From sequence record MK817115.1: a stretch of 64,000 nt of DNA. One strand, given 5' to 3'. The notes beneath the pieces were generated by a model. The model searched no databases and was not told the DNA's origin. It worked only from the letters and a program-made list of their open reading frames with translations. The translations under genes and the position numbers were made by a program. Source of the DNA: Escherichia phage vB_EcoM_phAPEC6. Positions 50,370-64,000 of this stretch are shown piece after piece; position 1 is the first letter of the stretch; each line of letters begins with the position of its first letter.

Positions 50370-50390
50370 GATGTTACCCCGTAGTATCTA

Positions 50391-50690: not shown

Positions 50691-50775
50691 TTGATTATCC
50701 TTAGTTACCAGGGGGAACCGCTCCCCCCTTGCGATGTAAAATATTATACAGTACTAAAAACTAATTGCAAGTACT
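50691..50775 (-). promoter_or_regulatory. promoter / 5' stem-loop / RBS cassette
   Basis: TTGCAA, TATAAT, GGGGGAACCGCTCCCCCC hairpin. Confidence 0.6.
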
Positions 50776-51012
50776 TTATGATTTTTTATAAAACATTTCG
50801 GCAGTGATATTTTTACCCGTTGGTTGTACTTTATCCAGAATTTTTTGATGTCCAGGGCGACCAAATGAATAAGATCCGTAAACCGTAAACCAGTAGTTAC
50901 CCTCAGTGTTTACATGTACAGCACAATAGGGAACGCCCCGCGATTCATCACTAGTAAAGTGTGATACCGTACCCGTTACATTCGCAGACGTTGATTTGAT
51001 TTGTTCGACCAT
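50776..51012 (-). CDS. hypothetical protein
   Basis: ORF-track ORF; cassette upstream. Confidence 0.5.
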   Translation of the reverse strand: MVEQIKSTSANVTGTVSHFTSDESRGVPYCAVHVNTEGNYWFTVYGSYSFGRPGHQKILDKVQPTGKNITAEMFYKKS

Positions 51013-51120
51013 TTTCTTATTCCTTAGTTACCAGGGGAACCGCTCCCCCTATGCAAAACATTATACGCGTTTAAAAACTAATAGCAAGTATTTTAATAAA
51101 AAGTATTTGGAAAATAATTG

Positions 51121-51149
51121 TTGACAAGTGCATCCAGTACTGGCATAAT
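51121..51149 (+). promoter_or_regulatory. plus-strand sigma70-like promoter
   Basis: TTGACA-17-CATAAT; followed by CCCACCGGGTGC-containing ~100 nt and a terminator hairpin. Confidence 0.45.
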
Positions 51150-51262
51150 TACTACATCAAGACGAAACAGTCACTAACCCACCGGGTGCCGAGATCCGTC
51201 TATTAAATGATTCAGTACTAAAAAAAGAAAGGGGATCAATTGATCCCCTCGTTGTTATTTTG
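51150..51262 (+). ncRNA. candidate small RNA
   Basis: bounded by promoter above and GGGGATCAATTGATCCCC hairpin plus T-run; no ORF. Confidence 0.3.
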
Positions 51263-51476
51263 TAAGGTATAAACAGAAGTCACCTTTATTTGCTACGCCG
51301 CCAGTGTAACGCGAGGAATAGTTAGAAACGTCCTGGACTTCTGCTATTACCAGGGTATCATCATTCAATTCGTCGCAGAAGCAAACGGCTGGATCTTGTA
51401 CGCCGATATTGTCGGCATGTTCCCGCATAGATTTAACCAGTGCTTCAAGTTGGGAAAGAGTAGTGATATTAGCCAT
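51255..51476 (-). CDS. hypothetical protein
   Basis: start at Met11 (MANITTLSQ); track ORF to 51506. Confidence 0.5.
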   Translation of the reverse strand: MANITTLSQLEALVKSMREHADNIGVQDPAVCFCDELNDDTLVIAEVQDVSNYSSRYTGGVANKGDFCLYLTK

Positions 51477-51559
51477 TTTATTTTCCTCATTACCAGGGAG
51501 AACCATTTCTCCCCTTGATGTAAACTATTATACAGTACTAAAAACTAATTGCAAGTACT

Positions 51560-51841
51560 TTAACTGTAAGATCCGCAACGGTCGCAGTAGTGCCCCTCGT
51601 CATCGTCAACGAATTGACCAACGAAATTATCTACTTTCGCTTTCAGGTTATTATAATCGTTTTCTACTTCATTTAAACGCTTCTGGTAGTATTCCAGTGC
51701 TTTAAGATATGCCGCATCAGCAGTTTTCTCCTGCATAGCTAAATTCATGCCACGCGTTTCATCGTACAGCCAAAAACCATCGGTGCACTGGCTAATAGAT
51801 AATGACTTGCTTAGTACTGTATAGTTAATTACTTTACTCAT
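51560..51841 (-). CDS. hypothetical protein
   Basis: start at Met28 behind GAGGG RBS; track ORF to 51922 reads through GGCGGGG..CCCGCC hairpin. Confidence 0.5.
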   Translation of the reverse strand: MSKVINYTVLSKSLSISQCTDGFWLYDETRGMNLAMQEKTADAAYLKALEYYQKRLNEVENDYNNLKAKVDNFVGQFVDDDEGHYCDRCGSYS

Positions 51842-51899
51842 TAGATAAACCCTCAATAAAGGCGGGAACCATTCCCCGCCATTGTTACAGTACTGAATA

Positions 51900-52139
51900 T
51901 TACATTCCAACCATTGCAGCACGGATCGCAGTAGTGCTATACTTAAAGCCGTCCGGCGTTGTAGTAGTACCGTTGGCTTTTAATCTGCGGTACATGCATT
52001 CCGCTGCAATATCTTTAGTTCTACTTTGTGCGATACAACTTTGTGCAAGCCGATACAATGACTCACCGTTATTAATCCATAAGGAAACATTCCAATGAGT
52101 TTTGTTTTTGTGCCCGTTGTAAGTTTTAGTACTAGCCAT
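51900..52139 (-). CDS. hypothetical protein (THWNVSLWINN paralog 1)
   Basis: paralog of 53937..54176 (GHKNKTHWNVSLWINN, TPDGFKYSTTAIRAAMVGM). Confidence 0.55.
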   Translation of the reverse strand: MASTKTYNGHKNKTHWNVSLWINNGESLYRLAQSCIAQSRTKDIAAECMYRRLKANGTTTTPDGFKYSTTAIRAAMVGM

Positions 52140-52231
52140 TTTTTTTAATCCTCGTTTGAGCGGGGAACCACTCCCCGCCTCGATATAAAGTATTATACGC
52201 TTTTAAACTTAGTTTGCAAGTACTTTTTAAA
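52140..52231 (-). promoter_or_regulatory. promoter / 5' stem-loop / RBS cassette
   Basis: TTGCAA, TATAAT, GCGGGGAACCACTCCCCGC hairpin. Confidence 0.6.
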
Positions 52232-52843
52232 TTAATATTCGATTGATTCTACTACGCCATCAATAACATTGAATTGATATTCGTTACCCTCAATCAGTGC
52301 TGTAATGTTTTCAGTAGTGAATTGATCCTCATATGCATTCTCTAAATCACGGTACAACTTGCGGGATAATTCACGAATAGTTTCAGTGAGTAGTTCCTCA
52401 AGCTCATTAACTAACGTTTCTTGTTTTGCGGTTAAATCAGTGTAAGCCGATTCAATGTACCCGCTTACAGTGTTTTCATGCGAGTAGTGGGAGTGAGAAC
52501 GCTTTACACTCATCGCCAAATCATCTTCATTCAGCAGGTGACGGATTGAGCGATACTTAGTTAATGCTCTTACCTTGCGTAAAAACTTCACTGCGTCAAC
52601 GTGGTCAGTACTGATTGATGCACCGTCACCCTGGGACCAAAAACCACTGAATTGTATTTCAGCGTCATTAATGCCATATTCCGGCAATACTGTTTCTTTA
52701 TAGTGTTCAATTTCACTTTCAGAAAAATAATCGTCGTTTGAGTTTTTTTCACGTTCCCGAACCAGTTCGATAGCTGACGTTTTTTGTTCTGCGTTCAATT
52801 CAGAAAAATCCATAACATAAGTAGTAGTAGTGATAGTTTTCAT
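52232..52843 (-). CDS. hypothetical acidic protein (203 aa)
   Basis: ORF-track ORF, strongly Asp/Glu-rich; tandem promoters with structured leader upstream. Confidence 0.55.
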   Translation of the reverse strand: MKTITTTTYVMDFSELNAEQKTSAIELVREREKNSNDDYFSESEIEHYKETVLPEYGINDAEIQFSGFWSQGDGASISTDHVDAVKFLRKVRALTKYRSIRHLLNEDDLAMSVKRSHSHYSHENTVSGYIESAYTDLTAKQETLVNELEELLTETIRELSRKLYRDLENAYEDQFTTENITALIEGNEYQFNVIDGVVESIEY

Positions 52844-53060
52844 TTTGTAACCCTCATTCAGTAGTTTATGTAAGTATTATACGCTTTTAAAAACAATTGT
52901 CAAACTATTTTATCAGGGGAGTTTTTCGTGTGCCTTACTCCTGGGCTACTTAACGGGAAGTTACTTATTTCGTTCCCCGTCCTGATGTAAAACATTATAC
53001 GCCTTTAAACATAGTTTGCAAGTACTTTTTAAAAATAGTTTTCAGTACTGAATAGTAAAA
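52844..53060 (-). promoter_or_regulatory. tandem promoters separated by ~80-nt structured leader element (copy 2)
   Basis: near-identical to 43085-43170 element with compensatory stem changes. Confidence 0.5.
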
Positions 53061-53065
53061 AGGTA

Positions 53066-53094
53066 TTGACAGCACTATCCAGTACTGGTATAAT
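53066..53094 (+). promoter_or_regulatory. plus-strand consensus sigma70 promoter
   Basis: TTGACA-17-TATAAT; downstream CCCACCGGGTGC and GATACACTCCCGCACCC elements, no ORF. Confidence 0.45.
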
Positions 53095-53268
53095 ATACCC
53101 CATGACAACAGCTAACCCACCGGGTGCACAATTGTAACTGTACTAAACTACTTTTTCTATAGATACACTCCCGCACCCTATGGGCTACGGCTTATCTGCC
53201 AATGAATACATTATGCCAGTACTGACAAAATAAGTCAATACCGGCAATTGTAAAGATTTGTAAACTAC

Positions 53269-53499
53269 TTATACTGCAATCGCGTCCAGGCTATAATAAT
53301 AATAAGTGCCGTATTGGTGTACTTTATTACCTTTTATTTCAGTACTGAATGAATCCGAACGATTGGCATATGATGTTAATTTATAGTACTTTACTTTACT
53401 AATACGTTGCCATACACCGCAGATCCGCTGTAAGTAAGTAGTTTTATTTGTGGTAGTATCTTTTACGGCTTTCAATTCGATCATATACATAGTGGTCAT
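53269..53499 (-). CDS. hypothetical protein
   Basis: ORF-track ORF; AAGGAG RBS and cassette upstream. Confidence 0.55.
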   Translation of the reverse strand: MTTMYMIELKAVKDTTTNKTTYLQRICGVWQRISKVKYYKLTSYANRSDSFSTEIKGNKVHQYGTYYYYSLDAIAV

Positions 53500-53584
53500 T
53501 TTATTACTCCTTGCTTTAGTGGGGAACTATTCCCCACCTGATATAAAGTATTATACGCGTTTAAACTTAGTTTGCAAGTACTTT

Positions 53585-53851
53585 TTATTCAAGTACTGCG
53601 ATCTTTTTAATACGGTACACGGTCACGCGGTTGCCCTTTCGGTCGAGCTTTATTTCTACCACTCGACGCGATACACTATCAGGACTTTTCAACGCCGCTA
53701 ACCAGTACTGTAATGATCTGGCGGTACTACGCTTTACAATGGCCCAACGTTTACCACGTTCCGATTGTACGCCCATATCTTTAAACGTTGCCCCGTCCTG
53801 GCGTGCGGCGATCCGAGCTTGTTCACGCGTCGCAAAATACTTAATATTCAT
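53585..53851 (-). CDS. hypothetical protein (FATREQAR paralog 2)
   Basis: start at Met13 (MNIKYFATREQ); promoter region also paralogous to that of 41568..41963. Confidence 0.55.
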   Translation of the reverse strand: MNIKYFATREQARIAARQDGATFKDMGVQSERGKRWAIVKRSTARSLQYWLAALKSPDSVSRRVVEIKLDRKGNRVTVYRIKKIAVLE

Positions 53852-53936
53852 GCTGTTGCCCTTATCGTTGGTGTATGAATAAAACACTATTATAAAGTAC
53901 TATCGCAAAAAATGATAGTACTTTAAATAAATTCTA

Positions 53937-54176
53937 TTACATTCCAACCATTGCAGCACGGATCGCAGTAGTGCTATATTTGAATCCGTCCGGTGTTTTA
54001 TCTTGTCCAGTCTGTTCTAAAAATAACATCATATGACGGGCCGCATCATTACGATTAGTATTGGCGGCAATAAAGTCCTGGGCCAACCGGTATAATGATT
54101 CATCGTTATTAATCCAAAGGCTTACATTCCAATGAGTTTTGTTTTTGTGACCTAAGAACATTTTTGATTTAGCCAT
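53937..54176 (-). CDS. hypothetical protein (THWNVSLWINN paralog 2)
   Basis: start at Met14 (MAKSKMFLGHKNKTHW) by analogy with 51900..52139. Confidence 0.55.
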   Translation of the reverse strand: MAKSKMFLGHKNKTHWNVSLWINNDESLYRLAQDFIAANTNRNDAARHMMLFLEQTGQDKTPDGFKYSTTAIRAAMVGM

Positions 54177-54269
54177 TTTTTTAATCCTCTTATATAGTGG
54201 GGAACTATTCCCCACCTGATGTAAAACATTATACGCTTTTAAACATAGTTTGCAAGTACTTTATTAAAC
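54177..54269 (-). promoter_or_regulatory. promoter / 5' stem-loop / RBS cassette
   Basis: TTGCAA, TATAAT, GGGGAACTATTCCCCAC hairpin. Confidence 0.6.
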
Positions 54270-54632
54270 TTATTCGTAAATTTTGCCACTGTCAGCCCAT
54301 ACCAGGAAACGAGGCATATTATCCCATGCATCTTGTTTTAAATTTAAACCGTGTAATACTTCTGTACTTTCCATTCCTGGTACTGGTTTACTATACACCG
54401 CAAATAGTTCACCCATATACTGATAAGCCATCGTTAAATCACTGGCGATCATCTTATGGATCATCGCATCAAGCATCACGGTAGCGGCGTATTGTTCACG
54501 CTTAAGCGGTAACATTGCAATAAGTTCCCGATAAGCTGAAATGTGAATTTTTACCGTTTCAGCCGGAAGACCTTTCATCTCTTCACGGAAGTTAACCAGG
54601 TTAGCAATAATTTTATTGATTTGAGTCGCCAT
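54270..54632 (-). CDS. hypothetical protein
   Basis: start at Met20 (MATQINKII) behind AAGAGAGA RBS; first gene after the noncoding hub. Confidence 0.5.
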   Translation of the reverse strand: MATQINKIIANLVNFREEMKGLPAETVKIHISAYRELIAMLPLKREQYAATVMLDAMIHKMIASDLTMAYQYMGELFAVYSKPVPGMESTEVLHGLNLKQDAWDNMPRFLVWADSGKIYE

Positions 54633-54746
54633 CGTTTTCATCTCTCTTACAGTGTAGCGGGAAGTGTTCCCGCTCTCGATGTAAAACATTATACGCTTTT
54701 AAACATAGTTTGCAAGTACTTTCTACATGTACTTTTAAAATAGTTT

Positions 54747-54840
54747 TCTTTCTATATAGGAGTACTATTATTCAGTACTGCAACCATCCAGGGGAACTAT
54801 CTTTCTATATAGTAGTACTATTATTCAGTACTGAATCAAT
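54747..54840. repeat. direct repeat, 2 copies of ~36 bp
   Basis: CTTTCTATATAGGAGTACTATTATTCAGTACTG repeated ~60 bp apart. Confidence 0.55.
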
Positions 54841-54995
54841 CAACCAAATCACTACTACACCCCGTAAAACGGCCTCAGACGCATTCTAACGCATTAATAC
54901 ACCCAAGCTATACATTTGCACCATTCCAATCATTCCAGGGCTTTACGGGCCGTTTAAACGCGTTAAATTATTTTCAATTATTTTGTTTTTAGGTA

Positions 54996-55023
54996 TTGAC
55001 TCAGTACAGAAAAAGCGTATAAT
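54996..55023 (+). promoter_or_regulatory. plus-strand sigma70-like promoter
   Basis: TTGACT-16-TATAAT; followed by GGGTGCGG..CCGCACCC inverted repeat. Confidence 0.45.
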
Positions 55024-55210
55024 TACTATATAGACGCGAGAAAGCGGAAACCCCAGAGGGTGCGGAATTACGCCCAAAATTCAAGATATAAAAAAAGGAT
55101 ACACTCCCGCACCCTAGCAGGTAAACGCACTTTCTCAGTACTGAAATATAGTACCATAGTCCGGCCCAGGATAGCAAGCAAATTAATTAAAACTTTTTTC
55201 ATCCAGGGTA

Positions 55211-55238
55211 TTGCTTTATTTTTCCAGTACTGTATAAT
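55211..55238 (+). promoter_or_regulatory. plus-strand sigma70-like promoter
   Basis: TTGCTT-16-TATAAT; followed by GAGAAAG..CCCACCGGGTGC..TTACGCCCAAAATTCA element shared with 55040-55100. Confidence 0.45.
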
Positions 55239-55469
55239 AGTTCCATCAAGTCGAGAAAGACTCAAGCCCACCGGGTGCATAGTTACGCCCAAAATTCAGT
55301 ACTAGATTATTTTTTAAAAATATTCATCCAGGCGGTTGACATTGCCCCCAGTTTATAAGATAATGATTCCAGATTCAGAAAAATCTAACTCCAGATACTG
55401 CGGGGAAACTATCCCCACGCGGTAGGGGAACTATTGGAAAAAACAAAATAAAATTTTGATTTAGCCGTC

Positions 55470-55600
55470 TATACTTCCAGACGTGTAACCATCTAGCCGT
55501 TTAGCCGTCCAAACGTCTAGCCATCCAGCCCTCCAGAAATCTAGCCGTTTAGCCGTCTAGATGGATAGCCATCTTTACTTCCAGACTTCTGGAGGGCTAG
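55470..55600. repeat. iteron-like repeat cluster with inverted repeat
   Basis: CTAGCCGTTTAGCCGTC twice, multiple TAGCC(G/A)T words, 11-bp inverted repeat GCCCTCCAGAA/TTCTGGAGGGC. Confidence 0.5.
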
Positions 55601-56631
55601 ACATATCTACGTCCAAAATCCACCCAGGGTAACTACGCCCAAAATCCGTCAGTACTATACCATAGATCTATCTTTTGAAAGGGAGTATTCAGTACTGCCA
55701 TCATAGCCCTCACTATGTTACCCTAGGAGGATGAAGACTATCATGTAGTACTGAATACTGTTAGAGGGAATCCACCAGCACAAGCTGGTGGCATAATGCT
55801 TTAGATTAAAATCAGTACTGACACCATTCTGTTAATATCAGTACTGTTATTACGATTTTCATATGAGGTTCAAAAAGATGTACCACCACAGGAGGAACTA
55901 TCTTTTCTGTACTGTCTCACGACAGGAGGTAGAGTAAATGAATTGTTCGCAGCAACTCATCACCCTATGTAGAACATTATACAGTACTGAATCATAATGT
56001 CAATAGCTTTCTTTCATTATTCAGTACTGATATTCTTGAGAACTACCCGACTACAAACATCATTATATCCCACAAATCATAAACGTCCCAACGTAAATTT
56101 CAACTTTCGAAGATCCAACTTTTATTTCATAGGTACTCCAAAATTTTTAGGATCGAGATTTAGGATGGAGTACTAACCAACTTTTTGCTGGAGCCTCAAG
56201 GGGTAATGGAATTTTACCCCGAAGGGTAAAGGGGTAATTGAAATTAAGGTGAAAGTAATAATTCAGTACTAATCATTGCGTGATTACTTTTGATTACATT
56301 TGATGTAATTTGAAAAATGGAAAAGGAGCTTGGAAACTACAAAGTACGGCAGACTTCCTCTGCCTACTTAGTGGCATATCAGTACTGAATCCTTCCCGTG
56401 CATTCTTGAGCATTCTTGTCTATACTAATCAGTACTGAATCATATATAATCATTCTGTGATTCTACGGTGCTCATATAAATGTTTATATATGATTACTTA
56501 TGACTACCTATGATTACGGGGTTTAGCCTGGGGAGAATCCTAGTGATCGCATTTGTCCAGGCTGAATTTTAACAATTCGCCTGTACATAAAGGTTGTTCA
56601 CTAGGAGCTTCCCCTGTCTCTATGTGTTTAA

Positions 56632-56823
56632 TTACTTTCTATATATAAGCATTAAGATATAGTAGTACTGATTATACTGTACATTCTCTTTAATATTATA
56701 AGGGTCTATAGCAATCTCGGTACATCTGTTAAATGCATATCTATTAAATGCCAGTGGAATTATAGATCTAATCCATACTTGTTCATTTTCTTTTAGTTTA
56801 CTTATATAGAAGTTTTTATACAT
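56632..56823 (-). CDS. FamC mini-protein
   Basis: N-term MYKNFY, C-term ILMLIYRK; tandem array. Confidence 0.55.
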   Translation of the reverse strand: MYKNFYISKLKENEQVWIRSIIPLAFNRYAFNRCTEIAIDPYNIKENVQYNQYYYILMLIYRK

Positions 56824-56838
56824 AGTATTCTCTATTAA

Positions 56839-57021
56839 TTAATATGATAGTACTAGTGTTAGTACTGAGCACAATTGTTCTTTATAGTTCTTAGGGTATA
56901 TAGAATCTTTTATGCACTCATTGAAGTGCCATAGGTATAATCTTGGGTCGCATTCTTTATATATTCTTACGGGGACGAATGTTAGTTTTCTTATATAGAA
57001 TTCTTTATGTTCTTTATTCAT
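56839..57021 (-). CDS. FamC mini-protein
   Basis: N-term MNKEHKEFY, C-term LTLVLSY. Confidence 0.55.
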   Translation of the reverse strand: MNKEHKEFYIRKLTFVPVRIYKECDPRLYLWHFNECIKDSIYPKNYKEQLCSVLTLVLSY

Positions 57022-57022
57022 A

Positions 57023-57211
57023 TTAGTACCTGAATATAAGTAGGATTATGTTATAGTACTGGTTAGTACTGCAATGATTCTCTATACATCGATTAACAGT
57101 TATGGAATAGCTATATCTGGCGTAAGCATTATCCAGCGGGATTTTACATTGAGCACTTAGAGAAAGTACAGTAGGTAGTGTATTCAAATAGAAGTCTTTG
57201 TAATTATTCAT
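57023..57211 (-). CDS. FamC mini-protein
   Basis: N-term MNNYKDFY, C-term ILLIFRY. Confidence 0.55.
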   Translation of the reverse strand: MNNYKDFYLNTLPTVLSLSAQCKIPLDNAYARYSYSITVNRCIENHCSTNQYYNIILLIFRY

Positions 57212-57413
57212 ACAGGAATAGTATACCTATGATACCTGAGTACAGGTTAGTACTGTTACCATCTTCGTTTGCGTTTAAAGTCATTTGAATACAATTATTG
57301 TAGCATACTCTGCCGAAAAATGTATTAGTACTTAAAGGTGGAGTAGTCCTTAGAAACATTTGTTCTGAGGGGCTTATGTATTTGGAGTAGAATTCTTTAT
57401 GTTCTTTATTCAT
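57204..57413 (-). CDS. FamC mini-protein
   Basis: N-term MNKEHKEFY; near-duplicate of 60216..60425. Confidence 0.55.
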   Translation of the reverse strand: MNKEHKEFYSKYISPSEQMFLRTTPPLSTNTFFGRVCYNNCIQMTLNANEDGNSTNLYSGIIGILFLYE

Positions 57414-57418
57414 ATTAG

Positions 57419-57604
57419 TTAGTGTCTGTATATAAGTAATAGTAAGAATACGTACTGCACATCTTCATCTTTAGTATTGAGTACTGTACGTATTGCGTCA
57501 TTAAACAAGAATATAGTACTTGGGTCATGAGAATTTAAAGGGGTTCTGGGTACGGCATGTTTGTAGTTCCCTTTAACAAATTGTGTGTAGTATTCTCTAT
57601 GCAT
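57419..57604 (-). CDS. FamC mini-protein
   Basis: N-term MHREYY, C-term LLLLIYRH. Confidence 0.55.
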   Translation of the reverse strand: MHREYYTQFVKGNYKHAVPRTPLNSHDPSTIFLFNDAIRTVLNTKDEDVQYVFLLLLIYRH

Positions 57605-57605
57605 A

Positions 57606-57791
57606 TTAGTACCTATATATTAGGGCGATAATGTAGTACAATTCATATGGAATGTAATTTGGGGTGATCGCACACTGTGTATGGTAAATGAATTGTTCGG
57701 TATTTTTCTTATCCTTGATATCTATTGGGATTAGTGGTATAAGCATTTGGGAGTTTAGATCGAGATGGCTTAAGTAGAATTCTTTATGCAT
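57606..57791 (-). CDS. FamC mini-protein
   Basis: N-term MHKEFY, C-term IALIYRY. Confidence 0.55.
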   Translation of the reverse strand: MHKEFYLSHLDLNSQMLIPLIPIDIKDKKNTEQFIYHTQCAITPNYIPYELYYIIALIYRY

Positions 57792-57800
57792 ATTGTTCTT

Positions 57801-57989
57801 TTAGAATACGAAAGCTAGGTACAGGGTATGATACAGTACTCGATGATAGCTGTCAAAATCTAGTATACATGCTTTAGTGCACATAGTAAAGTACACTTTA
57901 TCGTTTTGTGCATTGATACCGCGAGGTTTATCTAATAGATTAGTACTGAGGTACATTGGGAAATATTTTGTGTAGTATTCTTTATGCAT
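57801..57989 (-). CDS. FamC mini-protein
   Basis: start at Met16 (MHKEYYTKYF); track ORF to 58034. Confidence 0.5.
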   Translation of the reverse strand: MHKEYYTKYFPMYLSTNLLDKPRGINAQNDKVYFTMCTKACILDFDSYHRVLYHTLYLAFVF

Positions 57990-57990
57990 A

Positions 57991-58173
57991 TTAGTACCTG
58001 AATATAAGTAGGATAGTGTTATATAGCTGGTCATAACTACTACTATTTTCTATACTTCGTTCTATGCAGTTATTGAATCCCAGTACTGCCAAATCGTTAT
58101 CCATAGGGACTTTGTATCTGGCGTAGTGTTCAAAAATGCTGGGGAGAAATTGTGTGTAGTATTCTTTGTGCAT
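57991..58173 (-). CDS. FamC mini-protein
   Basis: N-term MHKEYY, C-term ILLIFRY. Confidence 0.55.
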   Translation of the reverse strand: MHKEYYTQFLPSIFEHYARYKVPMDNDLAVLGFNNCIERSIENSSSYDQLYNTILLIFRY

Positions 58174-58174
58174 A

Positions 58175-58360
58175 TTAGTACCTATATATTAGTAAAAGGA
58201 TGTGATACAGTACTCGATTATAGTCTTCAATATATATCGAGGATTTAGTGCACTGAATGAAGTAGTCTTTTTCGTAGTTTTTTTCTATACCCAATGGTTC
58301 TGTTGGTACAAGGTGTTGGAGATACATTGGGAGTTTCTCTATGTAGTATTCTTTATACAT
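58175..58360 (-). CDS. FamC mini-protein
   Basis: N-term MYKEYY, C-term LLLIYRY; AAGGA RBS. Confidence 0.55.
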   Translation of the reverse strand: MYKEYYIEKLPMYLQHLVPTEPLGIEKNYEKDYFIQCTKSSIYIEDYNRVLYHILLLIYRY

Positions 58361-58369
58361 ATATTATCC

Positions 58370-58567
58370 TTAGTACTGGAACGCAAGGTACAGGGTGTGG
58401 TAAAGTTGTACTTGATAATTGTTTTCATTAGCTTCTTCATTAAGTACTTGTTCAGTACATGTACGGAAGTAATCAGCTTCATATATACAGTCAATACCGC
58501 GAGGTTCATCTTCTAATAGATTTCCTTGTAGAAACTTTGGTAGTTCTTTTATGTAGAATTCTTTATA
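58370..58567 (-). CDS. FamC mini-protein
   Basis: start at Met23 (MYKEFYIKELP); track ORF to 58633. Confidence 0.5.
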   Translation of the reverse strand, partial: YKEFYIKELPKFLQGNLLEDEPRGIDCIYEADYFRTCTEQVLNEEANENNYQVQLYHTLYLAFQY

Positions 58568-59234
58568 CATAGTTTGTAATATACGTAATGAGGTGATGCA
58601 TTTTCTTATCAGTACTGATAATTTCCTGTACATGTTTTGTCAGATTGTACGCGTTTTTATAGAGTACTGGATTATCGATTACAGTACTGTACATGAATAG
58701 TTCTTCTTCCTGTAGTTCTTTGTGTTCTAGTTCTTTGAGGAATTCTACAATTGATTTAGTTTCTTCTGTACGTTGTGCTTGCCAGAAGTGCATATTCTCG
58801 TGTACTTTTTTTGCACCTATACTGTATATACCACCCATTTGGAATTGTGCTGTATTGACATCGTGGGAGGTGTTACAATTCCCGAAGAAGTATGTATTCC
58901 CGAAGTATAGCATTAAAGTGCACGGGGTATTATCCAACTGCATATGGATGATGAAGGATGCGTTCTTTAGTACCTTTGTGCTCGTATTAGTACTCAATAC
59001 TTTTAAATCAGTATTATAGATATTCATATAATGAACAGCTATATTATTTTTCTTCATGTACAATCCCAGGTTCTTTGATACGTTAACTCCATTTGTACTG
59101 GATTTTTCCTTTTTATTTCGTTTCTTTAGTACATTCGGGTGATACGTATATGCAGATGTAACTGATTCTGCCTGAATACTATTGAGGTACTTAAAGTGCT
59201 TAAGGTATTGTTTGCTGTGTGCATTAAGTTTCAT
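58563..59234 (-). CDS. FamA-like protein embedded in FamC array
   Basis: 223 aa with QEEELFMYSTVIDN (FQxS-type core with M for Q). Confidence 0.55.
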   Translation of the reverse strand: MKLNAHSKQYLKHFKYLNSIQAESVTSAYTYHPNVLKKRNKKEKSSTNGVNVSKNLGLYMKKNNIAVHYMNIYNTDLKVLSTNTSTKVLKNASFIIHMQLDNTPCTLMLYFGNTYFFGNCNTSHDVNTAQFQMGGIYSIGAKKVHENMHFWQAQRTEETKSIVEFLKELEHKELQEEELFMYSTVIDNPVLYKNAYNLTKHVQEIISTDKKMHHLITYITNYV

Positions 59235-59244
59235 TTGGTTTCCT

Positions 59245-59424
59245 TTATATAGATGCCAGGGCGAGGATTTCCCTGTAGGGATTATCTTGTGTTAGTACAG
59301 CATAAATGCAGTTATTGAGATTAATATTTTTAGTACTTTTTGTTCCTAGTTTGTAGTACTTCACGAAGGTGTCGTACATGAAACGGTCTTTTATGGTTAT
59401 ACGTTCTCTATAGAATTGTTGCAT
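59245..59424 (-). CDS. FamC-like mini-protein (59 aa)
   Basis: hand-translated; N-term MQQFY, C-term EILALASI; just below track cutoff. Confidence 0.4.
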   Translation of the reverse strand: MQQFYRERITIKDRFMYDTFVKYYKLGTKSTKNINLNNCIYAVLTQDNPYREILALASI

Positions 59425-59432
59425 AGTATTCC

Positions 59433-59615
59433 TTAAATAGCGATTAGTTTCATTACTTCTCTGTATGTGTACTTTTCGTTTTGTGCATCTCTTGTGACGA
59501 CATATAGGAAGGTGTGTTTATCTTTTTTGTTCCCGCAATTGTAGAAAATATTGAACTTATTGAAGTTGAATCTTTCGGCGTGTTGTAGTTTAGTTAAATA
59601 GAATTCTATGTTCAT
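59433..59615 (-). CDS. FamC mini-protein
   Basis: N-term MNIEFY, C-term KYTYREVMKLIAI. Confidence 0.5.
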   Translation of the reverse strand: MNIEFYLTKLQHAERFNFNKFNIFYNCGNKKDKHTFLYVVTRDAQNEKYTYREVMKLIAI

Positions 59616-59623
59616 TTTCTTCC

Positions 59624-59809
59624 TTACATTTCAATAAGTTTCAGTACTGCTCGGTACGTGTACTTAGTTGTCAGTGCTTCTTTAATAGAAATACAGAAGT
59701 AATGTTGTTTGTCTCTTATACTGCCGCGTTTGTAGTACCACACATGGGAGTTGTGACTGTACTTGTCTCTGTCGGATAGTTGTTGGTAGTAGTAGCTTAT
59801 ATGATTCAT
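59624..59809 (-). CDS. FamC mini-protein
   Basis: C-term TKYTYRAVLKLIEM, paralog of 59433..59615. Confidence 0.5.
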   Translation of the reverse strand: MNHISYYYQQLSDRDKYSHNSHVWYYKRGSIRDKQHYFCISIKEALTTKYTYRAVLKLIEM

Positions 59810-60018
59810 TATAATGTAATTAGCCTTACTATATTAAAGTACTCGGTCCCTGGTGTACCTTGTAGTATATTACGCACGACATTTTTTTGGTGCTGGATGA
59901 TTGCTGAAGGTGCGGTTCTTTTTAGTTTTTTTAAAGTACTGAATTCTTGTTTAAGTATGAACTGTACATCTTTAGGGAGAATATCTATGTAGTACTGATG
60001 AATGTTTGTAGTTTTCAT
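59809..60018 (-). CDS. FamC mini-protein (QYYID subtype)
   Basis: HQYYIDILP and RNILQGTPG; paralog of 60427..60630. Confidence 0.5.
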   Translation of the reverse strand: MKTTNIHQYYIDILPKDVQFILKQEFSTLKKLKRTAPSAIIQHQKNVVRNILQGTPGTEYFNIVRLITL

Positions 60019-60028
60019 ATAGCACCTT

Positions 60029-60223
60029 TTAGAACTTAAAGATGAGGTTCAGGATAGAGCGGTACTTAGTTTCAGGGAACTGATGTTCTATTGCATAACG
60101 TGTCGCCATCCTGAAATCGTAATTGTAATATAGATTATCCTTTCTCATAGGTGGTGCTAAAGAGAATGATAGCTGGTCTTGCTTGTGTAGTTTACTACCA
60201 TAGAAATCTTTATGATTATTCAT
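60029..60223 (-). CDS. FamC mini-protein
   Basis: N-term MNNHKDFY, C-term LNLIFKF. Confidence 0.5.
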   Translation of the reverse strand: MNNHKDFYGSKLHKQDQLSFSLAPPMRKDNLYYNYDFRMATRYAIEHQFPETKYRSILNLIFKF

Positions 60224-60425
60224 AGAAGTAGATTAGTCCTATTAAACCTGAGTACATAATATTTTTGTTATTGCATTCGATTGCTTCTAGAGTACTACGT
60301 ATACAATTATTAAAGCAATCTCTACCGAAGTGAGTATTGGTACTTACAGGTGATACACTCCTTAGAAACAATTGTTCTTCGTTGCTAAGGTATTTGGTGT
60401 AGAATTCTTTATGTTCAGTATTCAT
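60216..60425 (-). CDS. FamC mini-protein
   Basis: N-term MNTEHKEFYTKYLS, near-duplicate of 57204..57413. Confidence 0.55.
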   Translation of the reverse strand: MNTEHKEFYTKYLSNEEQLFLRSVSPVSTNTHFGRDCFNNCIRSTLEAIECNNKNIMYSGLIGLIYFYE

Positions 60426-60426
60426 A

Positions 60427-60630
60427 TTAGTACTCGATTAAAAGGGCAAGGATATAATAGTATTGCATACTTTCTGCCCCTTGTAAAGCATTTCTTATGA
60501 TATTATTCCTGTACGAGTTCAGGAGTTTAGGACAACGTTTGTAGTGTATAATAGTATTTTGTGTATACAGTAGGCTTTCTCGTAGACCTTTTGTTGGTAG
60601 TGCATCGATGTAGTACTGTTCGATATTCAT
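60427..60630 (-). CDS. FamC mini-protein (QYYID subtype)
   Basis: EQYYIDALP and RNALQGAES. Confidence 0.5.
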   Translation of the reverse strand: MNIEQYYIDALPTKGLRESLLYTQNTIIHYKRCPKLLNSYRNNIIRNALQGAESMQYYYILALLIEY

Positions 60631-60854
60631 ATAGATAGCAGTACTAAGATTTTTGATAATTGTTTATTGCTATCCCCGCAGATGTTGCTGTGTAAAATAC
60701 TCACAATGAGGGTATCAATTGCATTGTTCATCATAAGGGTGCATCCTGGACTATTATAATTTTTTAGCTCAATTAGCCACGAACTATCCGAGAGAAACTC
60801 CCCGTACTCTAGTTCATTTAGAGTATTGAGGTAGTACTTAAGAGTATTTGTCAT
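60627..60854 (-). CDS. FamC-like mini-protein (first gene of array)
   Basis: ORF-track ORF, C-term KILVLLSI; divergent point of transcription. Confidence 0.45.
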   Translation of the reverse strand: MTNTLKYYLNTLNELEYGEFLSDSSWLIELKNYNSPGCTLMMNNAIDTLIVSILHSNICGDSNKQLSKILVLLSI

Positions 60855-60899
60855 GTGTAGTTCTCCTTATATTCCTTCTATAGTACAACAGTACTGAAA

Positions 60900-60956
60900 G
60901 GATGTCAAGGGTTTTCTTTATGGGGTAAATATGATATAATGAATAAGGAGGGATTT
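60900..60956 (+). promoter_or_regulatory. promoter-like region and RBS for first RCC1-like gene
   Basis: TATAAT box then AAGGAGG RBS 5 nt before ATG; -35 not obvious; same block repeated before the two downstream paralogs. Confidence 0.4.
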
Positions 60957-62105
60957 ATGTTACCTTTTGCAAGAATGATTAAGTACGGGAATATTGCCCC
61001 TGGTGATGATGGACGTTTTAAAATATATTCCAGTGATTCCATGTATCTTCATGATACTTATACTGATAAGTTGTATGCATCTTCTGCGACGAATTGGGGT
61101 ACTGGTACAGGTGTAGCATCGAGTAAATTTATTCTTTGTGCGGAGAATGTTAAACGAGTTCTATTGGAAGATAACAGTAGTGATTGTCAATTGTACGAAG
61201 AGAAAGGTACGGGAAAAGTTTTTATCACTGGCAACACGAAGGCATTCACTGGTGTAACTGATAGAAAAACTTTGTGGACGGACTGTACTACATGGATAAC
61301 ATCAGGTGGTATTAATGTTTCTGATATAAAATACATGAGTAGTTTTTATGATATGAAGGTGAATTTGATAACAAACGATGGTACATTGTATTGTTGTGGA
61401 GCTAACAATATATCGAACATATCATCATTTGGTGATGGCACAAACATTAATTCTTTTAACACATTCAAAAGAGTAGATACTATAACTTCGGTTAAAAAGG
61501 CAGTTGGTAACATTTATTTGCGAGAAGATAATACTTTATGGGGTTGTGGTTTTAACTATTACTACCAGTTGGGTACGGGTAATCAAACTTCTATTACTGG
61601 GGTGACGATGATTTCTTCGGATGTTATAGATTTTAATGTAAGTTATCAGAGTACATTTTTTATCAAATCGGATAATAATTTGTACGCTTGTGGTAAACAG
61701 TTCGGTGCACAATATGGGAACGAATTTGGTACAGGTGGTACTTCTACATCTACAGATATACAATATAAAACTCCGACATTATTGAGTTCAGGAGTTTATA
61801 CTCTATATACTTGTGTTGGTAACATGGCATCACATATTGTCAAAGCAGATGAAGTTCTATATGCTTCTGGAACGAATGGGTTTGGGCAATTAGGTGTTGG
61901 TAATAATAATAATCAGTACTCCTATACTCCTTCTTATACTTCTTTTAATAGTTCGTGTGATTTGGTACGCAGTCCATCTGGATCACTTATACTTACGGAT
62001 ACTGGAAAATTATATTATTGTGGCATTGCAATAGTAGTAATGGGTGGTATTTCTGGACAGAACGTTCTTAATTATACAGAAGTAGATATGTCATTTATAC
62101 AATGA
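60957..62105 (+). CDS. RCC1-like repeat (beta-propeller) protein, FamD copy 1
   Basis: repeated LWGCGFNYYYQLGTGN, LYASGTNGFGQLGVGN blocks; start at MLPFARMIKYGN behind AAGGAGG (track ORF begins 18 nt upstream). Confidence 0.6.
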   Translation: MLPFARMIKYGNIAPGDDGRFKIYSSDSMYLHDTYTDKLYASSATNWGTGTGVASSKFILCAENVKRVLLEDNSSDCQLYEEKGTGKVFITGNTKAFTGVTDRKTLWTDCTTWITSGGINVSDIKYMSSFYDMKVNLITNDGTLYCCGANNISNISSFGDGTNINSFNTFKRVDTITSVKKAVGNIYLREDNTLWGCGFNYYYQLGTGNQTSITGVTMISSDVIDFNVSYQSTFFIKSDNNLYACGKQFGAQYGNEFGTGGTSTSTDIQYKTPTLLSSGVYTLYTCVGNMASHIVKADEVLYASGTNGFGQLGVGNNNNQYSYTPSYTSFNSSCDLVRSPSGSLILTDTGKLYYCGIAIVVMGGISGQNVLNYTEVDMSFIQ

Positions 62106-62113
62106 ATTAATAT

Positions 62114-62142
62114 GCCAGTACTTGATACTGGCTTTTCTTTTT
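62114..62142 (+). terminator. rho-independent terminator
   Basis: GCCAGTA-CTTGA-TACTGGC hairpin followed by TTTTCTTTTT. Confidence 0.6.
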
Positions 62143-62177
62143 GTATTAAATATAGTATAATGAATAAAGGAGGAATT

Positions 62178-63320
62178 ATGTTACCTTTTGCAAGAATGGT
62201 TAAGTACGGGAATATTGCACCTGCACAAATCGGTAGATATAAAATATACAGTTCATCTTCTTCACTATTTTTATTGGATACCCAAAAACACAATTTGTAC
62301 AGTACATCGAACATTAATTATACTAGTGGTACAGGTAATGTTGAGCCTAAATTTGTGTTAAGTGCAACTAATGTTAAAAGATTATTACTATCTGATAATA
62401 GTTGTGCAATGCAAATATATGAAGATATGAATGGGCGTGCAGCGATGTGTGGCACAAGAACTGCATATAGTGGGGTTGCAAATGATAATGTACTGGTATG
62501 GACGGATTGCACTACATGGTTCACAAATGTAGGGTTGAATGTATCAGATATTCAGTACATGTCTGGTTTTTATAATCTGAAACTAAACATAGTTATGAAT
62601 AATGGTGATTTGTGGTGTAGTGGGAAAAACAACACTACTACTATGTCATCATTTGGTAATAGCACAAATATCGATTCATTCAATCAGTTTACCAAAATAA
62701 CAACAATATCAAATGTTATTAAAGCCACCGGGAATATATACTTATGTGCAGATAATACTTTATGGGGATGTGGTTTTAACTCTTACTATCAGTTAGGGAC
62801 AGGTAATCAAACATCCAGTATTAATTTGATTATGATGGCTTCTAATGTTATCGACTGTAATGTTGGTCTTCAAAATACTTATTACTTGACTAATAATAAA
62901 GAACTTTATGGATGTGGTACACAATTTGGTACAACTTACGGGAATGAATTTGGAACAGGAAGGCAGGGAACATCAATACAATATAAGACTCCTACTATAA
63001 TTTTCACAAATGCAGATGGTCTGGCTGTTTGTGTCGGTAATATGTCTACTCATGTTATTCAATATGATAAAGTTTTTAGTTCTGGTAATAATGCCCTTGC
63101 ACAGTTGGGTGTAGGCAACCGTGACAATGTGTACACATATACACAATCATTTGATAATTTCAAAATGGATTCTTCTATAGTACGTGCAAACGTTGGAACA
63201 TTGATAATGACAGCGGACAATAAGTTATATTACAGTGGGAGAAATGATGTTGTTATGGGTGGAACAAGCACACAATACACGACGGTTTTCAGTGAAGTTA
63301 ATATGTCATTTATACAATGA
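62178..63320 (+). CDS. RCC1-like repeat protein, FamD copy 2
   Basis: same N-terminus MLPFARMVKYGN and C-terminus EVNMSFIQ as copy 1; LWGCGFNSYYQLGTGN; start behind AAGGAGG. Confidence 0.6.
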   Translation: MLPFARMVKYGNIAPAQIGRYKIYSSSSSLFLLDTQKHNLYSTSNINYTSGTGNVEPKFVLSATNVKRLLLSDNSCAMQIYEDMNGRAAMCGTRTAYSGVANDNVLVWTDCTTWFTNVGLNVSDIQYMSGFYNLKLNIVMNNGDLWCSGKNNTTTMSSFGNSTNIDSFNQFTKITTISNVIKATGNIYLCADNTLWGCGFNSYYQLGTGNQTSSINLIMMASNVIDCNVGLQNTYYLTNNKELYGCGTQFGTTYGNEFGTGRQGTSIQYKTPTIIFTNADGLAVCVGNMSTHVIQYDKVFSSGNNALAQLGVGNRDNVYTYTQSFDNFKMDSSIVRANVGTLIMTADNKLYYSGRNDVVMGGTSTQYTTVFSEVNMSFIQ

Positions 63321-63326
63321 ATTAAT

Positions 63327-63357
63327 GCCAGTACTTGATACTGGCTTTTCTTTTTTG
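63327..63357 (+). terminator. rho-independent terminator
   Basis: identical GCCAGTACTTGATACTGGC hairpin plus T-run. Confidence 0.6.
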
Positions 63358-63392
63358 TATTAAATATAGTATAATGAATAAAGGAGGGAATT

Positions 63393-64000
63393 ATGTTACC
63401 TTTTGCAAGAATGGTTAAGTACGGAAATGAAGCACCAGAACCAAAACCTCTATTTAAAAATAGATTACAAGCAAATTATAATACTCGTTTTTATTTGCAT
63501 GTTAATGGTGACTTGTACTGGTATGGTTCATCTTCATTTGGACAAGGTGGTAATGGTTCATTACAATCATCCACCGTATGGACCCGTGTGAATAATAATA
63601 TTGAACGTTACTGGGGTGGTGTTCTTGGTTCCATTGCCATTAAGAATGATGGAACTATTTGGTTCACAGGTGCTAGTATAGTAATGCCACAAATCGGAAC
63701 AAATACAAATGGGGTTTGGATTGATGTAACCCAGTACTTCACTGATTTTGGTGTCAGTGCTGATGATATTGATGGTATTGCTGTTGGACAGAATTTGCGT
63801 GTATTTTTGAAAAATGGAAAATGGTTCTACTGTGGTGCTGGCGAGGGTGGTGTATTTGGTAACGCATCAACAGCTAATGTCACATCGTTCAGATACAGCA
63901 CTATAGAAAATGTTAAAAGTTATGGCTGTTCTTTGCTCAGTACTGGGTTAGTTCTTGATGATGGTTCCTATTGGTATGCAGGAAATACTGTTGCTCCTGG
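63393..64000 (+). CDS. RCC1-like repeat protein, FamD copy 3 (partial, continues beyond window)
   Basis: ATG behind AAGGAGGG; frame open to window end on hand translation; N-terminus MLPFARMVKYGN; SFGQGGNG and CGAGEGGVFG glycine-rich repeats; not in ORF track (no stop). Confidence 0.55.
   Translation, partial: MLPFARMVKYGNEAPEPKPLFKNRLQANYNTRFYLHVNGDLYWYGSSSFGQGGNGSLQSSTVWTRVNNNIERYWGGVLGSIAIKNDGTIWFTGASIVMPQIGTNTNGVWIDVTQYFTDFGVSADDIDGIAVGQNLRVFLKNGKWFYCGAGEGGVFGNASTANVTSFRYSTIENVKSYGCSLLSTGLVLDDGSYWYAGNTVAP

What the first reader, a model, noticed from the sequence alone, without database searches (positions are those of the whole stretch)
56632..60854. Array of 18 FamC mini-proteins (59-75 aa)
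Minus-strand genes of about 190 bp with short regular spacers encode proteins that start M(H/N/Y)KE(F/Y)Y and end in a hydrophobic LL(L)I(Y/F)RY-like tail. Two sub-types recur (MNKEHKEFY...LSTNT at 57204 and 60216; QYYIDxLP...RNxLQG at 59809 and 60427). One FamA-like gene (58563..59234) and a 59-aa member missed by the ORF track (59245..59424) sit inside the array.
Basis: seen in the sequence. Interest (0 to 1): 0.75.

Follow-up and report, generated by a model that had tools for sequence, protein, structure and literature searches.

The report
Tandem mini-protein gene array in jumbo coliphage
A giant E. coli phage of the 121Q/PBECO4 group carries one tightly packed operon of 18 tiny (about 60 aa) helical proteins plus one 223-aa protein; the genes are real, most are one diversified family found only in this phage genus, and their function is unknown but they are most likely early host-directed factors.

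Summary
Window 56632-60854 (minus strand) contains 18 ATG-started ORFs of 59-75 aa and one of 223 aa, separated by -8 to +15 nt. They cover 97% of the stretch, against 3% in simulations. The window comes from an Asteriusvirus jumbo coliphage, and the array is syntenic in all eight genomes examined, with 16-22 members each.

Twelve members are clear paralogs (phrog_11711, unknown function). Three more (C11-C13) join them by profile comparison. C14 and C17 probably belong. The leader gene C18 is unproven.

AlphaFold gives a confident small helical domain (pLDDT 92) with no match in PDB or BFVD apart from its own paralogs. An exhaustive HMM search of 1.84 billion representatives found about 33 relatives, and every one whose source was traced comes from this phage group. 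No member has a transmembrane segment, so the suggested membrane tail is not supported.

The array sits behind one conserved sigma70-type promoter that shares the architecture of at least 14 early-type promoter cassettes nearby. Genes are translationally coupled. Pooled dN/dS is 0.46, and some members are far more constrained.

Best reading: an early, non-structural, diversified set of small binders used for host takeover or counter-defence. Function is inferred, not shown. The genes are already annotated as hypothetical proteins, so interest is moderate.

The parts
60880..60908 (-). sigma70-type promoter of the array: TTGACA - 17 nt containing CAGTACTG - TACTAT
   Evidence: Found. The -35, -10 and SD are conserved in six Asteriusvirus loci and in divergent JNE01 as TTGACA-17-TACAAT. 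It has the same architecture as the repeated early-type promoter cassettes at 36.5-56 kb.
60627..60854 (-). C18, 75-aa leader gene; the only member with a strong SD (AAGGAG, -9.3 kcal/mol)
   Evidence: It is the first gene of the array in all eight genomes. Family membership is unproven.
60427..60630 (-). C17, 67 aa, QYYID sub-type; overlaps the C18 stop by 4 nt
60216..60425 (-). C16, 69 aa, core family (LSTNT sub-type, paralog of C4)
60029..60223 (-). C15, 64 aa, core family; 8-nt overlap with C16
59809..60018 (-). C14, 69 aa, QYYID sub-type (paralog of C17)
59624..59809 (-). C13, 61 aa, subgroup B
59433..59615 (-). C12, 60 aa, subgroup B
59245..59424 (-). C11, 59 aa, subgroup B (the member 'missed by the ORF track')
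   Evidence: SD AAGGA
58563..59234 (-). 223-aa protein embedded in the array (phrog_29152, unknown function)
   Evidence: It holds the same position in all eight genomes. Homologs occur only in this phage group. The AlphaFold model is poor, pLDDT 48.
58370..58570 (-). C10, 66 aa, core family; 8-nt overlap with the 223-aa gene
58175..58360 (-). C9, 61 aa, core family; this is the modelled member and is identical to phAPEC6 gp542c
57991..58173 (-). C8, 60 aa, core family, strongly constrained (dN 0.007, dS 0.33 against fEgEco12)
57801..57989 (-). C7, 62 aa, core family; contains a candidate internal promoter at 57856-57828 (TTGACA-17-TATCAT)
   Evidence: The exact promoter-like motif is present in 3 of 7 other loci.
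57606..57791 (-). C6, 61 aa, core family
57419..57604 (-). C5, 61 aa, core family
57204..57413 (-). C4, 69 aa, core family (LSTNT sub-type)
57023..57211 (-). C3, 62 aa, core family; 8-nt overlap with C4
56839..57021 (-). C2, 60 aa, core family
56632..56823 (-). C1, 63 aa, core family, last gene of the array

Best explanation
The stretch is a 19-gene operon of an Asteriusvirus (121Q/PBECO4-like) jumbo coliphage. It encodes a genus-restricted, anciently duplicated and diversified family of about 60-aa soluble helical proteins, a divergent leader protein and one 223-aa protein. One host-RNA-polymerase (sigma70-type) promoter of the phage's early class drives transcription. Translation passes from gene to gene by coupling: stops and starts overlap or lie 1-15 nt apart, and the AGG Arg codon of the conserved C-terminal '...RY*' doubles as a Shine-Dalgarno-like element for the next gene. 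Each protein keeps a conserved hydrophobic/aromatic core (Y6, L10, P22, F34, C37, I/L42, L55, L57, I58, Y/F59) and a conserved N-terminal K-E-(F/Y)-Y. Surface positions and net charge vary widely (pI 4.4-10). I infer that the proteins are non-structural, early-made binders, each paralog tuned to a different host or competitor target (host takeover, counter-defence or superinfection exclusion). I also infer that phages gain, lose and swap members by recombination at the repeated gene ends. Shown here: the genes, homology, fold prediction, operon signals, distribution and turnover. Inferred: early timing and the binding/counter-defence role.
For: Real coding genes: ORFs cover 97.5% of the stretch against 3% simulated. 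All members start with ATG and show coupling and SD signals. HMM E-values are 1e-20 to 1e-26 for 12 members. AlphaFold gives pLDDT 92.2 and pTM 0.76 from only 42 sequences. Pooled pN/pS is 0.46, with C7, C8 and C13 at 0.02-0.2. The array is syntenic in eight genomes, including divergent JNE01. Early-class promoter: TTGACA-17-TACTAT is conserved across the genus and shares the TTGACA...AGTACTG...TAnnAT layout of at least 14 promoter cassettes in front of small genes at 39-56 kb. No minus-strand terminator-like site lies inside the array. In the distant relative PA5oct, transcription depends on host RNAP and most of the (mostly uncharacterised) genes in the long terminal repeat are early (PMC7318152). 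Non-structural: none of the array's products is among the 62 virion proteins of phAPEC6, although a 4.7-kDa protein was detected (PMC7247149). C9 is identical to phAPEC6 gp542c. Soluble: no TM segment. Diversified repertoire with turnover: paralogs are 16-59% identical, at least 29 ortholog groups occur in 7 genomes with 16-22 members per genome, some members have dN/dS near or above 1 (C1, C2), and one database sequence, P0017, reads as a chimera with a C9-like body and a C7-like tail (by inspection). Neighbouring genes in related phages are annotated as accessory functions such as spackle and GNAT acetyltransferase.
Confidence: 0.45

Rival explanations
1. The mini-proteins are packaged internal/ejected proteins, like the T-even internal proteins IPI-III. 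In this reading the conserved N-terminus is a capsid-targeting sequence, and the proteins enter the cell with the DNA to disarm host restriction.
For: The conserved N-terminal M-x-K-E-(F/Y)-Y loosely recalls the T4 capsid-targeting sequence MKTYQEFIAE (my own knowledge, not tested here). T-even IP loci are also hypervariable sets of small proteins with a shared leader. Phage 121Q showed a bubblegram pattern consistent with an inner body (PMC5646251).
Against: None of the array's products is in the phAPEC6 virion proteome of 62 proteins, which did include a 4.7-kDa protein. The promoter is of the early sigma70 class, not late. Homology runs the full length of the proteins rather than the leader only, and AlphaFold places the N-terminus inside the folded domain. 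No (L/I)xE cleavage motif follows the N-terminal motif.
Confidence: 0.07
2. They are small regulators of transcription, such as anti-sigma or appropriator proteins like T4 AsiA, or DNA-binding helix-hairpin proteins. Paralogs would then direct host RNA polymerase to different phage promoter classes.
For: They are small all-helical proteins made from an early-type promoter. Several members are basic, pI 9-10. The genome is rich in a repeated promoter-associated palindrome, CAGTACTG, 58 copies against 0.66 expected, which could be an operator.
Confidence: 0.1
3. They are assembly chaperones or adaptors for the adjacent, divergently transcribed array of RCC1-like virion proteins, roughly one small helper per structural paralog.
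For: The array abuts the RCC1-like array at 60939 onward in every genome. phAPEC6 encodes eleven RCC1-like proteins, and the eight gene products from that array's positions (gp003-010, gp549, gp551; two listed only as 'hypothetical protein') are in the virion proteome. Both are multi-copy families.
Against: The two arrays lie on opposite strands, and the FamC promoter is of the early class, whereas virion proteins are made late. No co-variation of copy number was established. Chaperones for fibres are usually encoded downstream on the same strand (general knowledge).
Confidence: 0.07
4. They are small membrane-active proteins (holin/antiholin-like, or superinfection-exclusion proteins) anchored by the hydrophobic C-terminal tail.
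For: The C-terminal helix is very hydrophobic (Y/L51, Y52, L55, L57, I58, Y/F59) on more than one face. It could therefore bind a membrane surface or a partner.
Against: The longest hydrophobic run is about 10 residues, and the highest 19-residue Kyte-Doolittle mean is 1.18, below 1.6. There is no signal peptide, and the N-terminus is charged. AlphaFold packs the helix into a globular domain at pLDDT of about 93.
Confidence: 0.05
5. The array is decaying or neutral duplicated DNA whose ORFs are no longer functional.
For: Some members evolve at dN/dS near or above 1 (C1, C2). Members are freely lost between close relatives.
Against: About 130 intact ORFs of constant length occur across seven genomes. 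The only disrupted ones are in an 'UNVERIFIED' record. Several members are under strong purifying selection. The promoter and SD are conserved, and the fold prediction is confident.
Confidence: 0.03

Closest known systems
PHROG family phrog_11711 (unknown function)
   Same: Twelve of the 18 mini-proteins match its 62-position profile end to end, with E from 1e-9 to 1e-28.
   Different: Six members (C11-C14, C17, C18) match no PHROG. The family carries no functional annotation, so membership explains nothing about mechanism.
Small variable early ORFs of the hyperplastic regions of T4-type phages, with their PeSL (promoter-early stem-loop) cassettes (PMC2839356, PMC4122927)
   Same: Both are small genes of unknown function that differ between close relatives and are expressed from sigma70-type early promoters. 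The adjacent 36.5-56 kb of this window holds at least 21 PeSL-like cassettes, and the FamC promoter has the same layout.
   Different: FamC genes are paralogs of one another and share a single promoter as a coupled operon, instead of each carrying its own cassette. Exchange would have to occur at conserved coding ends rather than at PeSLs.
Tandem paralog arrays of jumbo phages: more than 30 similar genes in 121Q and phage G (PMC5646251), and about 35 zinc-ribbon copies in phage G (PMC7824862)
   Same: All are lineage-specific tandem expansions inside a jumbo phage genome. FamC lies in 121Q itself, as gp249-265.
   Different: The published remark concerns an array of more than 30 genes, most likely the 31-member FamB array at 30.2-36.2 kb (phrog_4148) or the FamA genes. 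FamC is unrelated to FamB, is smaller and more diverged, and I found no specific description of it.
T-even internal proteins IPI/IPII/IPIII
   Same: Both are small proteins encoded in a hypervariable locus with a shared N-terminal motif.
   Different: FamC was not detected in the virion proteome, has an early-type promoter, shows homology over its full length, and has no recognisable protease cleavage site.
Host-takeover module of Bacillus phage SPO1 and anti-defence gene clusters of phages and plasmid leading regions
   Same: All are clusters of many small early proteins near a genome end, with strong host-type promoters. In Sharanji the array lies at 36-42 kb of a record whose paper reports a 20.7-kb terminal repeat.
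   Different: Those clusters hold unrelated proteins, whereas FamC is one diversified family. No member matches a known anti-defence or takeover protein.

Membership tests
phrog_11711 | Significant full-length match to the family HMM | tested here: met
   Twelve of 18 members (C1-C10, C15, C16) match with E from 5e-9 to 7e-28 over profile positions 1-62. The other six do not match.
FamC as a single homologous family of all 18 ORFs | Statistically supported homology linking every member | tested here: inconclusive
   Core against C11-13: hhalign 98.3%, E 8.8e-14. Core against C14/C17: 68.7%, P 5.8e-6. C18 group: best P 7e-4 against C14/C17 and 0.019 against the core. The unrelated FamB control gives P 0.08-0.8.
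Membrane-anchored small phage proteins (holin-like or tail-anchored) | At least one hydrophobic segment long enough to span a membrane (about 18-20 residues) | tested here: not met
   The highest 19-residue Kyte-Doolittle mean is 1.18, and most members fall below 0.8. The C-terminal helix is 14 residues and is packed in the model.
T-even internal proteins (capsid-targeted) | Presence in the virion | tested here: not met
   The phAPEC6 virion proteome (62 proteins) lists nothing between gp347 and gp549. C9 is gp542c. This is evidence from the literature on a near-identical phage, not an experiment on this genome.
T-even internal proteins (capsid-targeted) | N-terminal targeting sequence ending in a prohead-protease site, (L/I)-x-E | tested here: not met
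   The N-terminal consensus is M-(H/Y/N)-K-E-(F/Y)-Y-x-x-x-L, with no conserved (L/I)xE. The protease specificity of this phage is unknown.
Helix-turn-helix or AsiA-like small regulators | Structural match to the fold | tested here: not met
T4-type hyperplastic-region early genes | Sigma70-type early promoter, small ORFs, and presence/absence differences between close relatives | tested here: met
   The promoter is conserved. Genomes carry 16-22 members, with at least 29 ortholog groups in 7 genomes. Actual early timing could not be tested.
Known anti-defence proteins (Acr, Ocr/Ard, Tad, Gad etc.) | Sequence or structural similarity to a characterised inhibitor, or a demonstrated inhibitory activity | not testable with these tools
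   No anti-defence library was available. Pfam, NCBIfam, PDB sequence and fold searches gave nothing.

The most novel reading that the evidence does not exclude
FamC is a phage-encoded repertoire of single-domain binders built on a previously unseen small helical scaffold. Each anciently diverged paralog would neutralise a different variant of a polymorphic host immunity or toxin protein, and relatives would shuffle cassettes by recombination at the conserved gene ends. That would make it a family-based counter-defence 'library', unlike the usual clusters of unrelated inhibitors.
Probability: 0.2. Interest if true: 0.7.

Novelty: new member of a known kind. Interest (0 to 1): 0.35.

Why it matters
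Jumbo phages devote tens of kilobases to tandem families of tiny genes that nobody has explained. This window alone holds three such arrays, and none of the roughly 30 of its products scanned matches a family of known function apart from the RCC1-like genes. FamC is a clean test case. It has a single promoter, a compact operon of about 4.2 kb that could be deleted or cloned whole, a confident structural model, and natural variation in member content among sequenced relatives that could be correlated with host range. If the members prove to be target-specific inhibitors, they would provide a new small protein scaffold. They would also show how large phages keep a standing repertoire against diverse hosts.

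Tried and rejected
- **Family libraries:** Pfam, NCBIfam, PADLOC and PDB-sequence scans of all 18 members gave no credible hits.
- **223-aa protein:** the AlphaFold model has pLDDT 48 and is unusable, so I did not run a fold search on it.
- **223-aa C-terminus as a FamC domain:** this idea is not supported (hhalign P 0.02-0.3).
- **223-aa gene as FamA-like:** only a 37-column motif match was found.
- **FamB and FamC as one superfamily:** rejected.
- **RNA genes:** Rfam found none in the window, and there are no tRNAs.
- **Literature:** no transcriptome was found for phAPEC6 or in the Asteriusvirus papers consulted, and none of the papers consulted describes this array.
- **Membrane-tail idea:** rejected.
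- **Recent copy-number amplification ('genomic accordion'):** rejected, because the closest paralog pair is only 59% identical.
Full report
**Origin and context**

The window is from an Asteriusvirus, the 121Q/PBECO4/phAPEC6/G17 group of roughly 350-kb 'hairy' jumbo coliphages. Megablast of 56000-63500 hits 36 phage records at 88-98% identity, all from Escherichia or Salmonella phages. The array corresponds to G17_00054-00069 and to 121Q gp249-265, all annotated 'hypothetical protein'. One member, C9, is 100% identical to phAPEC6 gp542c.

The window is AT-rich (31-40% GC), has no tRNA genes and has no Rfam match.

**The observation**

Between 56632 and 60854 the minus strand carries 18 ATG-started ORFs of 59-75 aa and one of 223 aa. 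I number them C18 (promoter-proximal) to C1. Two ORFs in the mechanical list are extended upstream. The starts that fit the family are the internal ATGs at 57989 (C7) and 58570 (C10).

Gaps between consecutive genes run from -8 to +15 nt. ATG ORFs of at least 55 aa cover 97.5% of the stretch, against a mean of 3.3% (maximum 19%) in 300 first-order Markov simulations. The array is therefore real and far beyond chance.

**Family structure**

- Within the window, phmmer and an HMM built from the obvious members join 12 ORFs (C1-C10, C15, C16) at E of 1e-20 to 1e-26. The other six score E of 0.3-1.4.
- The same 12 match phrog_11711 (unknown function). The other six match no PHROG.
- I added the arrays of seven further genomes (G17, E9.1, WPEC5, BF17, CMSTMSU, fEgEco12, JNE01) and database homologs. 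Profile-profile comparison then links C11-C13 to the core firmly (98.3%, E 8.8e-14) and C14/C17 probably (68.7%, P 5.8e-6).
- The leader C18 reaches only P of about 1e-3 against C14/C17 and 0.02 against the core.
- An unrelated small family from the same window, FamB, gives P of 0.08-0.8 as a negative control.
- In sum, 15 of 18 are one family, two probably are, and C18 is unproven.
- Adjacent pairs appear to have been duplicated as units. C16-C15 and C4-C3 each overlap by 8 nt.

**The 223-aa gene**

This gene (phrog_29152) occupies the same place in every array, including that of divergent JNE01. It has homologs only in this phage group and no Pfam domain.

jackhmmer finds no relative in the window. 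A profile search finds only a 37-column motif, 'EL.EE(L/F)F.YSTV.DN', shared with the FamA-type ORF 21979-22602 (hhalign 29-49%). 'FamA-like' is therefore weakly supported at best.

Its AlphaFold model was poor (pLDDT 48), so it gave no functional lead. A suspected FamC-like C-terminal domain is not supported.

**The protein**

AlphaFold2, run on C9 with a 42-sequence alignment, gives pLDDT 92.2 and pTM 0.76. The model has helices at residues 3-7, 12-15, 28-43 and 47-60.

Column statistics over 59 distinct core sequences show these conserved positions:

| Region | Conserved positions |
|---|---|
| N-terminus | K3, E4, F/Y5, Y6, L10 |
| Loop | P22, L23 |
| Helix 3 | F34, C37, T/I38, I/L42 |
| Helix 4 | Y/L51, Y52, L55, L57, I58, Y/F59, Y61 |

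The loop at 11-27 and the outward faces of the two long helices are variable. Net charge at pH 7 ranges from -7.4 to +5.7 and pI from 4.4 to 10.0.

No member has a transmembrane segment; the highest 19-residue hydropathy mean is 1.18. The hydrophobic tail is the last helix of a small globular domain, not a membrane anchor.

The fold matches nothing informative:
- Foldseek against PDB: nothing at E below 3.
- Foldseek against BFVD: only the phage's own paralogs.
- Pfam, NCBIfam, PADLOC and PDB-sequence searches are empty.

**Distribution**

The word-indexed search of 5.8 billion clusters found 54 clusters. All are about 60-aa proteins from Asteriusvirus-like genomes or short metagenome contigs. 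The exhaustive HMMER search of 1.84 billion representatives found 35 hits, and 33 of them are proteins of 41-69 aa. One of the more divergent hits (P0072) traces to JNE01 and Turkey5, which are divergent Asteriusviruses. The family is confined to this genus.

**Evolution**

- Paralogs within the genome are old: median identity is 29-32% and the maximum is 59%.
- Orthologs between genomes are 60-100% identical.
- Pooled pN/pS over ortholog pairs is 0.46. Some members are strongly constrained (C8: dN 0.007, dS 0.33; also C7 and C13). Others are near or above 1 (C1, C2).
- Member content differs between close relatives: 16-22 members per genome and at least 29 ortholog groups in seven genomes, within a fixed frame of leader, minis, 223-aa gene and minis.
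- The exact junction GTACTAATATG recurs five times in the array.
- One database sequence (P0017) reads as a chimera, with a C9-type body and a C7-type tail (my inspection). This fits exchange by recombination at the conserved gene ends.

**Expression signals**

A promoter, TTGACA-17-TACTAT (60908-60880), followed by a strong SD (AAGGAG), precedes C18. Both are conserved in six close loci and in JNE01, where the promoter reads TTGACA-17-TACAAT.

The spacer contains CAGTACTG. The adjacent 36.5-56 kb holds at least 21 copies of an intergenic cassette of about 95 nt. On the coding strand the cassette reads:
1. -35 element (TTGACA or TTGCAA)
2. spacer ending in AGTACTG
3. TATAAT
4. GC-rich stem-loop
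5. SD and ATG

'AGTACTGTATAAT' occurs 14 times on that strand. These resemble the PeSL cassettes of T4-type hyperplastic regions (PMC2839356, PMC4122927). The FamC promoter is therefore of the phage's host-polymerase, presumably early, class.

No minus-strand terminator-like site lies within the array. Downstream genes have weak or moderate SDs or rely on overlap. In the 1-nt junctions, the AGG Arg codon of '...RY*' lies 9 nt before the next ATG. A second promoter-like element of the same layout lies inside C7 (57856-57828). It is exactly conserved in only 3 of 7 other loci, so it remains a candidate.

**Timing and location of the products (from the literature)**

- PA5oct, a distant relative, depends on host RNA polymerase, and most of the (mostly uncharacterised) genes in its long terminal repeat are early (PMC7318152).
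- The Sharanji paper reports a 20.7-kb terminal repeat, and the array lies at 36-42 kb of that record. If the record starts at the repeat, which I could not verify, the array lies about 15 kb beyond it.
- The phAPEC6 virion proteome has 62 proteins. It contains the gene products from the positions of the neighbouring RCC1-like array (gp549, gp551, gp003-010; two of these are listed only as 'hypothetical protein') and a 4.7-kDa protein. It contains none of the array's products.

**Interpretation**

The evidence shows a conserved operon that encodes a diversified, genus-restricted family of small soluble helical proteins. They are very probably made early and are not part of the virion.

A conserved core with variable surface and charge, heterogeneous selection and cassette-like turnover between relatives is what one expects of proteins that bind variable partners. 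I therefore favour a host-takeover, counter-defence or exclusion role (confidence about 0.45 for the whole statement; the functional part is inference).

Rivals:
- Packaged internal proteins: argued against by the virion proteome and the promoter class.
- Small transcription regulators: no fold or charge support.
- Chaperones for the RCC1-like neighbours: opposite strand and different promoter class.
- Membrane proteins: excluded by hydropathy.
- Decaying DNA: excluded by ORF integrity and constraint.

**Novelty**

The genes are already annotated as hypothetical proteins, and 12 of them sit in a PHROG of unknown function. Tandem duplication in 121Q has been mentioned in one sentence (PMC5646251), repeated in the phAPEC6 paper and in a 2026 review. 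That sentence refers to an array of more than 30 genes, not to this one.

I found no description of FamC, its fold, its operon structure or its turnover. It is a new member of a known kind: lineage-specific tandem families of small early phage genes. Interest is moderate.

Noticed in passing
whole window; e.g. 60889, 55982, 37607, 53217: The palindrome CAGTACTG occurs 58 times against 0.66 expected. AGTACT (a ScaI site) has 271 sites against about 22 expected, and GTAC has 640 against about 204. Part of the excess lies in the spacer of the repeated early-type promoters (AGTACTGTATAAT). Part encodes the motif Y-S-T-V (TAC AGT ACT GTn) that recurs at several of the copies in the FamA-type ORFs at 1-21 kb. 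The excess of GTAC itself remains unexplained.
   Followed up: partly
window 36500-56100, minus strand: At least 21 copies of an intergenic cassette of about 95 nt precede small genes. Each has a -35 element, a spacer with AGTACTG, TATAAT, a GC-rich stem-loop (GGGGAGAAnnnTTCTCCCC) and an SD. They look like the PeSL mobile regulatory cassettes of T4-type phages, here in a Rak2-like jumbo phage.
   Followed up: partly
window 30240-36225, minus strand: A second mini-protein array, FamB, has about 31 tandem paralogs of 66-104 aa with an 'LGTNYQE' motif (phrog_4148, unknown function). It is unrelated to FamC by hhalign. It is probably the '>30 very similar genes' of 121Q mentioned in PMC5646251.
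   Followed up: partly
window 1-30000, minus strand: About 60 back-to-back genes of 100-207 aa fall into several paralog clusters (FamA-type). The six representatives scanned against PHROGs all fall in families of unknown function.
   Followed up: no
window 54700-56630: This 1.9-kb stretch downstream of the array has few ORFs. It carries a perfect TTGACA-16-TATAAT promoter (56003-55976), about ten CAGTACTG copies, several hairpins (for example TTTACCC-TTCG-GGGTAAA at 56230-56213) and an 8-bp-period repeat at 55466-55617. No Rfam family matches. It may hold non-coding RNA or regulatory DNA.
   Followed up: no
window 60939-64000, plus strand: This is the start of a tandem array of RCC1-repeat proteins of 388 and 402 aa and onward (Pfam RCC1, phrog_4219), transcribed divergently from FamC. 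phAPEC6 has eleven RCC1-like proteins, and the eight gene products from that array's positions (two listed only as 'hypothetical protein') were found in virions (PMC7247149).
   Followed up: partly
window 57856-57828, inside C7: A complete early-type promoter-like element (TTGACA-17-TATCAT with AGTACTG in the spacer) is embedded in the codons for D-F-D-S-Y-H-R-V-L-Y-H, 37 nt before the C6 start. It is exactly conserved in 3 of 7 other loci.
   Followed up: partly
window 31001-56000: Parts of this region match 213 phage records outside the genus (Phapecoctavirus, Klebsiella and Campylobacter phages and others). In relatives these parts are annotated as spackle, GNAT acetyltransferase, DksA-like zinc-finger protein and 'pro-lysogenic factor'. 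This suggests horizontally exchanged accessory genes.
   Followed up: no
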